Origin: Magallana gigas
Lineage: Eukaryota
DNA length: 64,000 nt
Direction of reading: 5' to 3'
Assembly (NCBI RefSeq): GCF_963853765.1
Contig: NC_088858.1
Location: 30,938,001-31,002,000, forward strand
In this document: piece after piece, positions 43,001 through 49,000 of the stretch
Numbering within the stretch: the first letter of the stretch is position 1
Layout of the letters: each line of letters starts with the position of its first letter
Position numbers: made by a program

Positions 43001-46000
43001 CAAAGGCGGCTCGAAATTCTAGATATCAATGAAAACACTTTGCTTAGCTAGGATTAATTAAAGAGAAGTTCAACTTTTTATTTTCAATTTTGAATTTCAA
43101 GAGTTGAGCGTCTCAATGCGAATTGTGATTTGTAATATTGAAGTATTTCAGAATTGGTTTAAAAGGTCAACTTCAGTCTCTCTAATTTTCCTTTATGAAA
43201 TTGAAATAGAATTCAAATCTCATATTGTACTTTTGAATGCATAAATTACATAATATACTGCAATTTTAAAACGATAACTTTATAATATAAGTAACCATGA
43301 AACCATGTACATACAAAAACGTACTTTGTATACCTCTGATTTAATTGATTTGTAAATACATTTTCCATAAGGGAAAAATAACAGTCTATATAGATTATCA
43401 ATATTTACTAAAAAAATTCAATTAAAAGCTGGCATACCTTCAACTTGTTCATCCGTTAATATTTCGGGCCATATGTTTGCCTGCAATGGTAAAACAACAA
43501 CTAAAACATGTTTGTTGCATATTTACACAATTCATTAACTATGAACACAGGATTCAAATCAATATAATTGTAATTATCCGTTGACAAATTATGTCTTACC
43601 ATTTTTCAGTCAATGAAATGTACCTTGCACCCCTCTCTATCTCATGTCTGATACCAAGGTCATTGTTCTTTGACTGAAGAGGTGGGTAATCCCAAACGAC
43701 ACACAACCGGAGAATCTTGTCAAACCAGATGAGGAATTTCGAACTCTCCAACTCTACATGTACACTATTTATTTACAGAGAGCACCATGCTCCACGGGTA
43801 TTTAATCATGATGATTTTTAATCAATTCAATTTGGCTTTTGCAGTCTCGACGACTTGCAATGAATTTTTTTTAAACCCAAAGTTTTTCTTACATCTTGAA
43901 AAGGGTGTGAAAGACGTACATGAAAGATCGCCGGTGAAAGAGAATAATCAATAATAGAGGGTATTTATTCGGGACGGTCGCAAAGTTAAACAAGATCTGT
44001 CTAAATTACAGGGGGTTTTATTTCGAATTGATCCTCTCCAAAATCCTGGTAACGTATCGTCCTACAATTTCAGCTGATGATAAATTTGAAATATTGATTG
44101 TTATTAAATTTTTGGATCTAAAATTTGACACGAACTAAACGTATTTATTTTCTTATCTACAAATGACTGCAATATCATATCTGCAAGCGTAAATGTAACA
44201 TTAATATATCATTTACTGGGGTTTTTTTTTTTTTAGATCTGCATATGTTTTGTTTTTCAATTGTCAACAGTACCACAAAAATATTTAACCAAATATTGTC
44301 AATAATGTCGGATGCAAAAGGCGATTGTGTTTCAAGGTAAATTACTAAAAGAGATGTAAGGAAATCATTTTTTTCTATACAAATAAAACAAACCAACAAA
44401 TATAAACTTAATGAGAGCAGATAGCTATATACAATATTCCCATTGCTGTAAAGAAATATATAAGTTCTAAAAGAAGTGTCAGAGAAATTATGAAGTATTT
44501 TCTTTAATATATTTTAGGAAACAACTCTTTTTTTCATGTAAAATCAGTCAATGTTGTATTTACATATGTACAGTTATACCTATATTCATAAAATTCATCT
44601 GTGTTTGTATTTAATTTCATTTTCAATGAAAAGTCAACATATTATGAATTTATTCCATTTATATACATTTACTTGGTGCAAACAATGCATATTGTAGTAT
44701 ATTGTTTTATTGAAGTGTCAATATTTCAAAGCGTCAAAATTTGTTATAAAAGAAAATTCTAGTTATAAAATACTCCCTGATTTCCTCTACAAACAACTTG
44801 ATGAGAAAGGAAGGTTTAACAAAATGATGAATAGACATGATATAATAACAGAGAAAATATAACAAAATAATATAGCAGAGATATTTTTACGATAACTCTG
44901 ACTTGTAATATACTTTTAATAACAGACGTAGTTTACTTTCTTAGACCAAAACAAAACACTCATGGAATTATACAATTTTATAACACGATACAATGATATA
45001 AAGCTGATTAATGAACCTTAATATCAAATACTGACTTTTATCTAATAAGGTAATGCAAAGTGTGTTTGCTTTGACCTACACTGTATTTTTTATTCTTCAA
45101 ATTATAGACAAAAGAAAATATGAAAAATAAGATGATAAAATTAACTTTATTTTACAAAACATATTTGATGATTTATATATAACAATGTATCACGTATCAC
45201 AGTAAGATATAATGAAATGCCATGCAGATCAGTTTTACAAACATGCAGCACATATTAACATATCACAGCTGCTACACAGTATAGTAAAGGTCCAATCCTC
45301 ACTGAAATGAATTGCACTTAACACGTCACAAACAGGGGTCTAACTTTAGTTGCGTACTTTTTGACTTCCTTTATGTGTCACGTCGTCGCCACCATCATCT
45401 TGACGAAATCTGCCATGAAATATAAAGAAATGAAATTCAGCATATTTTCACTTTTCCTATCTAATTCTTATTCAATTCTAATTCTTATCATTCATTTCAA
45501 CTGAGAAGTGTTTGGCATCCGATTCAATAAATACAAAGCAAATCCTATTTTGAGCTCAATATCATTTCCTATAGTATCAACAAAACCCGGATCGTTTTCT
45601 GCAAGTAGAGTTACCAATGGAGCCAAGTACACGTAACTACACTAACATGTAAACATTAAACCTTCTTGATTCCCAATAATTTCAAGACAAACTACAGTCA
45701 CTATTTTAAACCATATTTTATCAGTTAAAGGGACTTAGACACCATTTGACTTAAAATTTTCAAATTTTATTTTTCCATTTTCAATGTTTATAATGATAAA
45801 TAAAGAAATTTATAATGCTTTGTCAAAATTTGAAAGTCAAATATCAAGATATAAGCAAGATACAGAGTTCATAATTCTTTGTTTTGTAAACAAAGCTGGA
45901 ATATTGTCATTCTTACATATGTGTTGTTTTGGTGTAAGTTTTAATCAAATGTACCTTTCTTTTGTTGATAATAGTATATATGAAGATATTGAATTAGTTT

Positions 46001-49000
46001 AAATTGTTTTTAAATGTCATTTTGTCTAAGAAATGGCAATTCTCTACATTACATATTTTTGTAAAAAAAATATAGCTAAAGACTCGAGCTTTGTTTACAT
46101 AACAATCAATTCTTACCTCTGTATCTAGATTGTAACTTGACATTAACATTCAATATTTTAGTCAATCATTTAAAATGCACCAGTAAACCATTTTAAACAT
46201 AAAAAATTGAAATAAAATTTTTGATCTCAAATCGTGTCGAAGTCCCTTTAATCATTATAGTAATTTTCTATTCATTCGTGTTAAAAATTTATTTTAATTT
46301 ATTTAGAAAATATCTGTTGAAATATACATGTACCTGTTACGTTAACCATGCCGTCTTCGTCCGTATCCGCCTTCGATATTAGCTCCTCTGCTTCCTCTTC
46401 CGTTATACTGTTGCCCAGAGCTGCCATCGCTTCTCTCAGATCGTTGGCCGTGATCTTGCCACAGCCGTCCATATCAAACACACTGAACACCTCGGCCAAT
46501 TCATCCTCTGTCATAATCTCTGTTTGGTCACCCCTCCTTGCCATGATTTCCATGAAGTCCATGTAGTGGATGAATCCATTGGCTACAAAAGAAAGACAGT
46601 CAGTTGTGAATCCATTTACCACCAATGGAAGACAGTTGCAATTATAAGTTTAAAATCAGATGATAAATATGTTGGCTACGAAAGAATGAAGACAGTTGCA
46701 ACTAATATTAACATATAGTGAAGAATTTTGTGGCTATCAAAAAATCAGTTGTAATTTGAGGTTTTAAACCTCCTTCTTGTGGTCTGAAGCATTTAACAAT
46801 AAGTGTTTTGTTTAAACAATGTCTTTGTATTTATTTTTCGAGTTGGTACTTATATATCAATCAAACAAACAAAAAATAGATTGCGAAAAAACAATAATTT
46901 ATCTATTGTGTTACTGCTTGTTAAGATATATTCCTAAAAACTTGAAACATTGTCTTGCTTATGAAAACACAAGATCCCATCTTATCAGGTGGTCAGAACT
47001 TGGCATATATTTATAGAGCATATGATGTCTTTTAAAAAGACAAAAACACTATTTAAAAAAAAATATTCTTAAAGATAAAATTTTTTAGTTGATAAACATT
47101 CTGAGAGAGTTTAATCTGTTCTTTATAAAAGTTAGATCATAATTATATCATTGATATACATATGTACTTAAATCTAATCACATTCAGATAAGTAGATTAA
47201 ACTATAAAACCTGTACGTAAAGATTTACATGTATATAACTTGAAACAACTAGTACTTTTACTGTGTATTGCACACAGATGCATGTGTAAGAAATTCTGGA
47301 AATGTTTTCAAAATTCAACATTAATTTTCTCTACTAGCAATTTGAAATTAAGTAATCCGAGAAACAATACTTTTATCAGAAGTTAACAAAACTTGAAATC
47401 CTACAAACATATAGATCAATACTATAGCTACTAAAGACTAACCACTTCTGTCGTATTCACGGATCATGGCCTTGACATCATCTTGCGTGACCTCTTGACC
47501 CAGGGCCCTCATGACTTTCTCAAGGTTCTCCACTGATATCGTTCCATTCTTGTCCTTGTCGAATCGCCTGAACACATCTTGGTACACTGGAATGGTGATA
47601 ATATATTGAATATATGAACAAGTTTTTTTCTTTATGATTCCATGCAATCTAATTAAAACTAGACTTGTATAACCGCTACTTCACGATATGCCAAACGAAC
47701 ACTAGTAGAGTTTCGTAAAGGTGCGGATTTACAAGTCTTATTTTAATTAGATTGGTATGATTCGTAATGGAAACGTTGTATCCTTCATGATACAGTAAAT
47801 ATATTCAATATCATCATTCATAAACCCGCGGTGATGTTAATTTTTCAACACACCTCGTTAGAAAAGCGGTCTTATACTTCTCTTTACAAATCATGGAAGA
47901 TTCTAAGTTTACTTATTTGCTTCATAGGGAAAAAGGCTATAATTGCTTTCATCATTTGCATTGTTAGTCGTTTCTTAATAAGTGGAGTAATGATATAATT
48001 ATGTAACAACATAATATTAAAGTGTATGTTGGCATTTACTTACATTTAATTTGTTCGTCCGTAATTACAGGGTCCTATAAATAGAGAGCAACTGCATTAC
48101 AGTTTGCAAAACAATCAGAACAGTTAATTTTTCATCTTAAAAGTGTTGACAGATAAAAAAAACCCACAGGACTTCTCAATAATGCACGTTGAATGGCCTA
48201 TTCGTGCCAATGATAACTACCTTTTTAACGGGTTTCTTTTTCTTTTTCCTAACAACCTTTTTGGGTGGCATCTCTTATACTAATCGCCCTTTGCAATGAG
48301 AACTAAAATCCGGTGCACTTAAATCTTTTTGAATACAATAATTCACTCAAGAACGGAAACCCGAAAATCTGAATGTTTACCGAGTTTTTTCTCTGAGCTA
48401 GACCATTGGGTGTATGGGCACGGATTGATTTCTATAGACCCCTGGTAAAGTCCTGGCGTTCGTGCTGCCTTTCTAATCTACTTTTATCATTTTGACCCCC
48501 CTGATAATCTGAACTAATCATAAAGACTTGTAATAAATCTAAATATGAAAGAACCACACACAATCTGAAGTAAACAAATATGGCTTACCATAGTTCCCGT
48601 AATCGTCTGGAAATCTTTACTAATGGTGGCATTTCAATAGCGAACAGCTCGAACGAGCAGGAGTTTAAATCCCCCTGCCAATGGTGTAGGTACACGAGAG
48701 ACGGCAAAAACCGGTTGTGTATACAGATATTGACAAAAGATCGATACCGATTGACACAGATCAACACAGGCTCGTTTTGTTGACATTTTATTTTACAAGG
48801 TGGATCCTTTTAATAAACAAAAATGGGTCCTTTACACATACATGTGACACCTCTCCCCTCCTCTTCTCCTTCCAGTCAAATTTTAATTTGTTTAAGTAGG
48901 TGAGATTTTAAAAATATATTTTAATCATTTTATAATTCACGTTGCAGCTCAAGTTGGTTTGGAAGCATTTGTTTTCCCCCTTATTTTCATATGATTTATT

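What the first reader, a model, noticed from the sequence alone, without database searches (positions are those of the whole stretch)
45378..48591. Gene I has lost the invariant Glu12 in all four EF loops (N, D, D, D)
Seen: position 12 is N, D, D and D, while D1 and G6 are kept in every loop and the ORF is intact. Established: the bidentate Glu12 drives Ca2+ selectivity and lobe opening; E12D shifts loops toward Mg2+ and weakens the conformational switch, and E12 mutants of calmodulin act as dominant negatives. Inference: four parallel changes suggest selection for a Mg2+-binding or Ca2+-insensitive calmodulin mimic, possibly a natural competitor or structural subunit.
Basis: partly seen in the sequence, partly recalled or inferred. 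Interest (0 to 1): 0.68.

Follow-up and report, generated by a model that had tools for sequence, protein, structure and literature searches.

The report
Oyster calmodulin-like gene lacking Glu12
A Pacific-oyster calmodulin-like gene really does carry Asn or Asp instead of the usual calcium-gripping glutamate in all four binding loops, and oysters have conserved this, so it is probably a calcium-blind or magnesium-type relative of calmodulin whose job is untested.

Summary
On the minus strand at 45378-48591 lies an intact five- or six-exon calmodulin-like gene. It is one of at least ten such genes in a tandem array in oyster DNA. Its exon translations equal the public Magallana (Crassostrea) gigas protein A0A8W8I043 (168 aa). 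Loop position 12 is N, D, D, D, while D1 and G6 are kept in all four loops.

This is not decay. N12/D12/D12 in EF1-3 is kept in 7 of 7 oyster sequences, and the pearl-oyster ortholog also lacks Glu12 there. Spliced transcript-size contigs exist. The orthologs form a 100/100 clade with a long stem and short tips.

Among 105 related four-loop units that keep D1 and G6, none has zero Glu12.

"Invariant Glu12" is overstated, because about 10% of EF-hands have Asp there.

Best reading, inferred and not shown: a Ca2+-desensitised, probably Mg2+-occupied constitutive subunit of the light-chain type, not a plain calmodulin competitor. No biochemistry is available.

Verdict: a new member of a known kind, of modest interest.

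The parts
48589..48591 (-). ATG-only first coding exon followed by GTAAG. It is used in the annotated 152-aa isoform (A0A8W8HYX8).
   Evidence: One search shows the sequence. P0201 begins MDPVITDEQIK. ATGGTAAG occurs 8 times, all on the minus strand (2.27 expected), mostly upstream of array genes.
48221..48271 (-). Exon encoding MPPKKVVRKKKKKPVKK, the start of the 168-aa isoform. It is polybasic (10 K/R of 17) and begins with the X-P-K motif.
   Evidence: ATG at 48271, donor GT at 48220-48219. (P0197, P0003-P0007 all start this way). (13 of 17 residues invariant in 7 oysters). (the only such exon in the window).
48044..48074 (-). Exon encoding DPVITDEQIK plus the first base of the Leu28 codon. 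It corresponds to calmodulin's LTEEQIAEF helix start.
47443..47586 (-). Exon A: EF1 loop DKDKNGTISVEN (47560-47525, Asn12 = AAC) and the first three residues of EF2 (DRS) plus G of the split Ala76 codon.
46334..46582 (-). Exon B: the rest of EF2 (NGFIHYMD, Asp12 = GAC at 46559-46557), EF3 DMDGCGKITAND (46475-46440, Asp12 = GAT), EF4 DTDEDGMVNVT (46367-46335) plus G of the split position-12 codon.
45378..45409 (-). Terminal coding exon: AT completes G|AT = Asp12 of EF4, followed by FVKMMVATT and the stop TGA (45380-45378).
   Evidence: P0197 and P0201 end DFVKMMVATT.
45146..45151 (-). AATAAA, a candidate polyadenylation signal 227 nt after the stop. It fits a stand-alone transcript end.
   Evidence: Read from the sequence. 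It is a candidate only.

Best explanation
Gene I is an expressed calmodulin paralog restricted to oysters and pearl oysters among the sequences searched. After duplication it diverged fast, then came under purifying selection. It keeps the calmodulin fold and most of the hydrophobic, Met-rich target-binding residues. The bidentate Glu at loop position 12 is replaced in every loop: Asn in EF1 and Asp in EF2-4.

Inferred mechanism:
- The Asp12 loops can no longer use the Glu12-driven movement of the exiting helix that opens calmodulin's lobes on Ca2+ binding. At cellular Mg2+ levels they would mostly hold Mg2+, or bind Ca2+ only weakly.
- The protein would therefore sit on its partner constitutively instead of switching with Ca2+. 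This is the way myosin light chains, CALML4 and androcam work on IQ-type helices.
- The conserved disordered N-terminal tail MPPKKVVRKKKKKPVKK would add an electrostatic tether to an acidic surface (actin, membrane or nucleic acid). It is a candidate for alpha-N-methylation.

Shown here: gene structure, loop residues, conservation, transcript-size contigs and calmodulin as the nearest relative. Inferred: metal selectivity, lack of a Ca2+ switch, the light-chain-like role and the role of the tail.
For: Identity and gene structure:
- The exon translations equal the M. gigas protein P0197.
- P0197 is found on 22 contigs of at most 1841 nt, while the gene spans 2894 nt from ATG to stop. Those contigs must therefore be spliced.
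- Calmodulin is the nearest solved relative: E = 1e-33, 44-46% identity over residues 21-166, with all four loops aligned column for column. All 50 listed fold matches are calmodulin or calmodulin-like.

Conservation:
- N12/D12/D12 in EF1-3 in 7 of 7 oyster sequences; Asp12 in EF4 in 3 of 3 stand-alone forms.
- Positions 1, 3, 5, 6, 8 and 12 are invariant at 22 of 23 sites.
- Asp and Glu interchange in 8 other columns but not at position 12.
- The gene I clade (window, C. virginica, Saccostrea, Ostrea, Pinctada) has 100/100 support, a stem of 0.95 changes per column and tips of 0.04-0.36.
- The Pinctada unit has G, D and C at position 12 of EF1-3.

Target surface: from the alignment, 6 of calmodulin's 9 Met positions keep Met and 2 more stay hydrophobic. 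The calmodulin numbering is recalled.

Literature (passages read):
- Asp12 shifts selectivity to Mg2+ (PMC5983762; PMC8622359; PMC6107761).
- Asn12 makes centrin EF3 weak or inactive.
- CALML4 is a Ca2+-blind light chain (PMC10579538).
- Androcam is a tissue-specific calmodulin-like light chain (PMC4914028).

N-terminal tail:
- pI 11.5 against a core of pI 4.23.
- pLDDT below 50 for residues 1-19.
- X-P-K is the NTMT consensus, and the myosin A1 light chain's methylated N-terminus contacts actin (PMC6465133).
Against: - No metal-binding, partner or localisation data exist. No paper on this gene was found.
- Asp12 sites can still bind Ca2+ at micromolar affinity: CIB1 EF3 has a Kd of 1.9 uM.
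- The centrin review warns that predicted and measured binding often disagree.
- The strong conservation of D1, D3, D5 and G6 shows that the loops still matter. That fits a retuned Ca2+ sensor as well as a Mg2+ site.
- In 4 of 7 ortholog models, EF4 position 12 reads Glu. Those annotations splice exon B to the next gene's exon. If such read-through products are real, one loop regains Glu12.
- The N-terminal 36 residues match no solved chain (0 hits), so the likeness to light chains is by motif only.
- The AF2 model is of middling confidence (mean pLDDT 68.9, pTM 0.42) and says nothing about the metal state.
Confidence: 0.42

Rival explanations
1. It is still a Ca2+ sensor, retuned to lower affinity or different kinetics. 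The Asp12 loops, above all EF4 (DTDEDGMVNVTD), would bind Ca2+ at tens of micromolar and respond only in high-Ca2+ settings, such as Ca2+-transporting epithelia of a shell-building animal.
For: - D1, D3, D5 and G6 are kept, and 22 of 23 key loop sites are invariant.
- Asp12 sites such as CIB1 EF3 bind Ca2+ at 1.9 uM.
- Some centrins with Asp12 or Asn12 loops still bind Ca2+ weakly.
- By the PROSITE EF-hand pattern as I recall it (not from a call), EF4 still qualifies.
Against: - EF1 has Asn12, EF3 has Cys at position 5, and EF2 has Ser3 and His9. At most one or two loops look competent.
- The Pinctada ortholog has Gly12 and Leu3 in EF1 and Cys12 in EF3. This suggests that binding at those sites is dispensable in the family.
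Confidence: 0.3
2. One reading: it is a natural dominant-negative competitor that occupies calmodulin's targets without activating them.
For: Most of the Met-rich target surface is kept (alignment). Calmodulin is the nearest relative.
Against: - Only 44-46% identity to calmodulin.
- A 2-residue longer central linker.
- A conserved polybasic N-terminal tail that calmodulin lacks.
- Most calmodulin targets need the Ca2+-opened lobes, so a Ca2+-blind protein could compete only at apo-calmodulin (IQ) sites. That merges this idea with the light-chain reading.
- No data show competition.
Confidence: 0.1
3. It is a decaying duplicate under relaxed selection, and the position-12 changes are neutral drift.
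For: It sits in a large tandem array in which neighbours also have degenerate loops. Gene H has Q, a shortened loop, E and D.
Against: - Intact frame and splice sites.
- 76-88% identity among the oyster genera compared over 158 residues.
- Short tips after a long stem.
- Spliced transcript-size contigs.
- Position 12 is invariant while Asp/Glu swaps occur elsewhere.
Confidence: 0.03

Closest known systems
Calmodulin (canonical, e.g. PDB 8aht, 1exr, 1cll)
   Same: Four EF-hands in two lobes, 44-46% identity and aligned loop for loop. The same ATG-only first exon occurs in the array genes. Most Met and hydrophobic target-binding positions are kept. All 50 listed fold matches are calmodulin or calmodulin-like.
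   Different: No Glu12 in any loop (N, D, D, D). Cys at EF3 position 5. A linker two residues longer. A 17-residue polybasic N-terminal extension in the main isoform.
CALML4 (human calmodulin-like 4), the Ca2+-insensitive light chain of myosin-7a/7b
   Same: A calmodulin paralog (44% identical to calmodulin) whose chelating residues are lost. It does not respond to Ca2+ and serves as a constitutive lever-arm subunit (PMC10579538, passages read).
   Different: In CALML4 the chelating residues are reported absent in each EF-hand. Here positions 1, 3, 5 and 6 are largely kept and only position 12 is changed systematically. No orthology exists, and no partner is known for the oyster protein.
Androcam (Drosophila testis calmodulin-like light chain of myosin VI)
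   Same: A lineage-specific calmodulin paralog with non-canonical metal binding and a lobe that stays closed. It acts as a tissue-specific light chain (PMC4914028, passage read).
   Different: Androcam's C lobe binds two Ca2+ with high affinity. The oyster protein lacks Glu12 in both lobes. Its tissue of expression is unknown here.
Myosin A1 essential light chain N-terminal extension, and X-P-K substrates of NTMT1/2
   Same: The N-terminus starts (M)-X-P-K-K and is Lys-rich. In A1 light chains the methylated N-terminus contacts actin electrostatically (PMC6465133; PMC4914028).
   Different: The likeness is by motif only. The first 36 residues match no solved chain. The A1 extension is about 40 residues against 17-19 here. 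Methylation is untested.
Asp12/Asn12 EF-hands: CIB family EF3, plant CMLs, centrin EF2/EF3
   Same: Asp at position 12 gives Mg2+-preferring or mixed sites. Asn12 gives weak or inactive sites.
   Different: In those proteins only one or two loops carry the change. Here all four do, with the rest of each loop conserved.

Membership tests
EF-hand / calmodulin-like proteins | Paired helix-loop-helix EF-hand motifs recognised by family profiles | tested here: met
   Pfam EF-hand_7 at E = 5.9e-30 for P0197, with EF-hand_1, _6, _8 and _5 above their cut-offs. The single exons also pass.
EF-hand / calmodulin-like proteins | Four EF-hands in two lobes, with calmodulin as nearest relative | tested here: met
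   PDB sequence search gives calmodulin at E about 1e-33 over residues 21-166. The AF2 model has eight helices. Foldseek returns calmodulins.
Calmodulin proper | Near-identity to calmodulin and four canonical loops ending in Glu12 | tested here: not met
   44-46% identity. 0 of 4 loops have Glu12.
Calmodulin proper | Ca2+-dependent opening and target activation | not testable with these tools
   Needs biochemistry.
Myosin light chains / Ca2+-insensitive calmodulin-like subunits (ELC, CALML4, androcam type) | Calmodulin-like fold with degenerate metal sites | tested here: met
Myosin light chains / Ca2+-insensitive calmodulin-like subunits (ELC, CALML4, androcam type) | Constitutive binding to an IQ motif of a heavy chain | not testable with these tools
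   No partner is known. No complex prediction was run because no candidate partner emerged.
Myosin light chains / Ca2+-insensitive calmodulin-like subunits (ELC, CALML4, androcam type) | Sequence closer to light chains than to calmodulin | tested here: not met
   The best 60 PDB sequence hits are calmodulins or calmodulin fusions. All 50 listed fold hits are calmodulin or calmodulin-like.
Mixed Ca2+/Mg2+ or Mg2+-type EF-hand sites | Asp instead of Glu at loop position 12 (-Z) | tested here: met
   EF2, EF3 and EF4 have Asp; EF1 has Asn.
Mixed Ca2+/Mg2+ or Mg2+-type EF-hand sites | Measured Mg2+ binding that competes with Ca2+ | not testable with these tools
   Needs ITC or NMR.
NTMT (alpha-N-methyltransferase) substrates | N-terminus (M)-X-P-K/R with X not Asp or Glu | tested here: met
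   MPPKK in 7 of 7 oyster sequences. The consensus is from PMC6465133. Methylation itself is not testable here.
Centrins | Closer to centrins than to calmodulin | tested here: not met
   No centrin appears among the best 60 PDB sequence hits or the 50 listed fold hits. Only the basic N-terminal extension and the Asp12/Asn12 loops are reminiscent.

The most novel reading that the evidence does not exclude
Oysters and pearl oysters keep a calmodulin paralog whose four loops were converted to a non-Glu -Z chemistry (Asn/Asp, plus a conserved Cys at EF3 position 5) while staying otherwise intact. It would be a dedicated sensor or holder of a metal other than Ca2+: Mg2+, or possibly Mn2+ or Zn2+ in these metal-accumulating animals. 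An alpha-N-methylated polybasic tail would anchor it.

Because the -Z codon of EF4 is split by a phase-1 intron in every gene of the array, the choice of 3' exon could toggle that loop between Asp and Glu. The gene's own exon gives Asp; the next gene's exon gives Glu.
Probability: 0.15. Interest if true: 0.6.

Novelty: new member of a known kind. Interest (0 to 1): 0.36.

Why it matters
Laboratory calmodulins with position-12 mutations are standard tools for separating Ca2+-dependent from Ca2+-independent functions. This gene is a natural version, conserved across oyster genera, with every other loop feature retained. It offers three things:

- a clean test of what Asp or Asn at -Z does in a whole calmodulin-type protein (Mg2+ versus Ca2+ selectivity, and lobe opening);
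- a lead to a Ca2+-independent calmodulin-like subunit in molluscs;
- an example of how tandem calmodulin arrays diversify.

It also flags an annotation problem. In five species the gene is merged with its neighbours into "LPS1-alpha-like" or "calmodulin-like 12" models, and the merge changes the residue at EF4 position 12.

Tried and rejected
- The joined step was left out. I did not search or fold my own spliced model. Exons were searched singly, and the public protein P0197, which equals the exon translations, served as the full-length stand-in.
- A bacterial-type promoter/terminator scan upstream of the gene is not meaningful for an animal gene.
- Rfam, tRNA and tandem-repeat scans found nothing.
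- A PDB search with the first 36 residues gave 0 hits.
- The ESM Atlas gave only generic calmodulin-like and troponin-C-like clusters.
- Searches for stand-alone orthologs outside Magallana found none (with P0007; with the Pinctada unit). EF4 position 12 in C. virginica, Ostrea, Saccostrea and Pinctada therefore stays unknown.
- Ten paper searches found no study of this gene or of the array (plus background searches).
They cannot tell open from closed, or which metal is bound.
- No complex prediction was run, because no candidate partner emerged.
Tissue-expression tables of oyster genome papers may hold data on this gene, but I could not see them.
- Centrin and troponin C membership was considered and dropped.
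Full report
**What the window is.** The window is AT-rich animal DNA (26-37% G+C), not human. A six-frame scan for EF-hand loops finds 27 loop-like hits, all on the minus strand. They belong to at least ten calmodulin-like genes in tandem. Two N runs (816-1022 and 18863-19012) were left untouched.

The exon translations of the gene in question equal, letter for letter, the Magallana (Crassostrea) gigas protein UniRef100_A0A8W8I043 (P0197, 168 aa). The window is therefore Pacific-oyster DNA or something nearly identical.

**Gene model.** I worked exon by exon and made no joined model of my own. 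The minus strand gives these exons:
- an ATG-only exon at 48591-48589 followed by GTAAG;
- a 51-nt exon at 48271-48221 encoding MPPKKVVRKKKKKPVKK;
- 48074-48044, encoding DPVITDEQIK plus one base;
- exon A at 47586-47443;
- exon B at 46582-46334;
- a terminal exon at 45409-45378, encoding FVKMMVATT plus the stop.

All introns are GT..AG. Exon lengths sum to 507 nt (168 codons plus stop) with the MPPKK exon, or 459 nt (152 codons plus stop) with the ATG-only exon.

ATGGTAAG occurs 8 times in the window, all on the minus strand, against 2.27 expected.

The 168-aa form looks like the main product. It and its close variants are on 22, 19, 9, 6 and 5 Logan contigs, while the 152-aa gene I form has no contig listed. 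How the ATG-only exon relates to the 168-aa transcript (upstream ORF, or alternative promoter) I could not resolve.

**The observation.**
- EF1 is DKDKNGTISVEN, EF2 DRSANGFIHYMD, EF3 DMDGCGKITAND and EF4 DTDEDGMVNVTD.
- Position 12 is Asn (AAC), Asp (GAC), Asp (GAT) and Asp (G|AT across the last intron).
- D1 and G6 are kept in all four loops.
- The alignment to calmodulin places each of these residues opposite calmodulin's Glu12.

**Is it more than chance?**
- In the other array genes, 16 of 16 unsplit loops caught by my pattern end in Glu. The pattern allowed E, D, N, Q, S, T or G at position 12.
- The split EF4 codon reads Glu in the genes at 53.6, 22.6, 12.2 and 8.4 kb. It reads Asp only in gene I and its downstream neighbour.
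- The 35 nearest stand-alone relatives (about 44% identical) have Glu12 in 35/35, 33/35, 34/35 and 35/35.
- Among the 149 best representatives of an exhaustive search of 1.84 billion proteins, 241 four-loop units cover all four columns. Of these, 107 are EEEE and 24 have no Glu12.
- Nearly all of those 24 sit in giant degenerate-repeat proteins that have also lost D1. One example is P0010, an opossum EFCAB3 isoform.
- Of the 105 units that keep D1 and G6 in all four loops, 80 have four Glu12, 16 three, 7 two, 2 one and none zero.

A caveat on the wording: Glu12 is common, not invariant. About 10% of EF-hands have Asp (PMC9177970, passage).

**Conservation and history.** Orthologs are present in Crassostrea virginica, Ostrea edulis, Saccostrea cucullata and S. 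echinata, and in close Magallana-type variants.
- Over residues 1-158, the window's protein is 79-87% identical to the four named-species models and 96-98% to the two Magallana-type variants.
- EF1-3 carry N12, D12 and D12 in 7 of 7 sequences.
- Positions 1, 3, 5, 6, 8 and 12 are invariant at 22 of 23 testable sites. The one exception is D114H in the C. virginica model, and an ENA fragment of the same type has Asp there.
- Asp and Glu interchange in 8 other columns but never at position 12.
- The Cys at EF3 position 5 is kept in 7 of 7.
- A Pinctada imbricata model (KAK3089991.1) contains the same three neighbours in order. Its gene I unit is 57% identical in exon B, against 46% for the best paralog in the window. 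It has Gly, Asp and Cys at position 12 of EF1-3.
- In a tree of exon-B-equivalent peptides (20 rows; two off-register rows dropped), the gene I orthologs form a 100/100 clade. The stem is 0.95 changes per column and the tips are 0.04-0.36. This means fast change once, then constraint.
- No relative above 50% identity exists outside this oyster cluster in the representative library.

The loss of Glu12 in EF1-3 therefore predates the split of true oysters and pearl oysters. I recall that split as ancient, but no call dates it.

**A complication at EF4.** The position-12 codon of EF4 is split after its first base in every array gene examined.
- Four NCBI models splice exon B of gene I straight to the "EF(R/Q)AAF" exon of the next gene. 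These are C. virginica, O. edulis and the two Saccostrea species.
- The submitter's Pinctada model does the same with its "EFKEAF" exon.
- These merges give 299-469-aa "LPS1-alpha-like" or "calmodulin" proteins in which that residue reads Glu.
- The M. gigas RefSeq model XP_019919512.3 (315 aa) merges the two genes through another acceptor and reads Val.
- In the protein collection, the stand-alone forms of gene I and of the neighbour (P0199, P0205, P0207) are the ones found on short contigs. The fused form is listed only from the chromosome.
- An AATAAA lies 227 nt after gene I's stop.

I take the fusions for annotation merges or minor read-through, but I could not test this. EF4 Asp12 is thus shown for 3 of 3 stand-alone sequences, all Magallana-type, and is unknown for the other genera.

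**What it is like.**
- Calmodulin is the nearest solved relative at 44-46% identity. All 50 listed Foldseek matches are calmodulin or calmodulin-like.
- The AF2 model has mean pLDDT 68.9 and pTM 0.42. It has the eight helices of calmodulin, a flexible linker (residues 94-98) and a disordered N-terminus (residues 1-19).
- From the alignment, six of calmodulin's nine Met positions keep Met, and two more are Ile or Leu. The calmodulin numbering is recalled. The helix-binding surfaces therefore look preserved.
- The core is acidic (pI 4.23) and the 17-residue tail is basic (pI 11.5, 10 K/R).
- The tail is conserved (13 of 17 residues invariant) and is unique to this gene in the window.
- It starts (M)PPKK, which fits the X-P-K/R consensus of the N-terminal methyltransferases. 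Known substrates include the myosin A1 light chain, whose methylated Lys-rich N-terminus contacts actin (PMC6465133, passages; PMC4914028, passages).

**Mechanism (inferred).** Reviews state three relevant points. Glu12 gives bidentate chelation. Asp12 lowers Ca2+ selectivity in favour of Mg2+. Asn12 makes sites weak or dead (PMC5983762; PMC8622359; PMC6107761).

With Asn in EF1, Asp in EF2-4, Cys at EF3 position 5, and Ser3 and His9 in EF2, I expect no calmodulin-type Ca2+ switch. I expect Mg2+ occupancy, or weak Ca2+ binding at one or two loops, with EF4 the best candidate.

A protein that keeps calmodulin's binding surfaces but not its switch would bind partners constitutively. CALML4 on myosin-7a/7b works this way (PMC10579538), as do androcam on myosin VI and other light chains with dead EF-hands (PMC4914028). 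The basic tail would add a tether.

I put this reading at about 0.4. A retuned low-affinity Ca2+ sensor is the main rival at about 0.3, because the conserved ligands at positions 1, 3 and 5 show that the loops still do something. Pure competition with calmodulin is at about 0.1 and decay at about 0.03.

**Novelty.** The gene is annotated but uncharacterised. I found no paper on it or on the array (search listings only). Calmodulin-like proteins with altered loops are a well-known kind. This one is a new member, with an unusually clean pattern: every -Z residue changed and the rest kept.

Left unchecked:
- supplements (closed), so any tissue-expression tables went unseen;
- the closed collections;
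- eukaryotic genome DNA of other oysters, which these tools do not hold.

Noticed in passing
window 40998-43601 (minus strand): The downstream neighbour, gene H (P0199 = A0A8W8HYS2, 151 aa), is also degenerate. EF1 is DVKGTGKVSINQ (Gln12), EF2 is two residues short, EF3 is canonical, and EF4 is DLDCKGKVDFH plus G|AT (Asp12). Its orthologs form their own 100/99 clade, Pinctada included.
   Followed up: partly
window 37500-48300, and proteins P0003-P0006, P0013, P0198: Annotation pipelines in six species merge two or three neighbouring array genes into 299-469-aa "LPS1-alpha-like" or "calmodulin-like protein 12" models. Every array gene examined has a phase-1 intron inside the EF4 position-12 codon, so such junctions stay in frame and change that residue (Asp to Glu or Val). 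Whether read-through transcripts are real was not testable.
   Followed up: partly
window 45725-46251 and 45808-46176; 47626-47773: Nested inverted repeats lie in the last intron (50-nt arms at 76% and 98-nt arms at 71% complementarity) and look like a MITE. A 61-nt-arm palindrome ends about 40 nt upstream of the exon A acceptor.
   Followed up: no
window 46571-46693: There are three direct copies (100%, 80% and 67%) of a 30-mer spanning the exon B acceptor. They make decoy copies of the splice acceptor in the intron just upstream; the nearest decoy would run into a stop.
   Followed up: no
window 19013-19495 (plus strand): An open frame with a TM2 domain (Pfam PF05154, E = 4.9e-16) lies on the opposite strand and interrupts the calmodulin-like array. 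It abuts the N run 18863-19012, which was left as it is.
   Followed up: partly
protein P0010 (opossum EFCAB3 isoform X14, 6935 aa) and P0012: Repeat units of these giant EF-hand proteins align to gene I with N, D, D, D at the four position-12 columns (6 units in all), but they lack Asp at position 1. This is probably coincidence among degenerate repeats.
   Followed up: no
window 51700-58347 (minus strand): The upstream neighbour, gene J, is the most calmodulin-like gene of the array: four loops ending in Glu and a terminal exon FVKMMASGKKDG with a short basic tail. A J-like unit also precedes the gene I unit in the Pinctada model, so the order J-I-H is conserved.
   Followed up: partly
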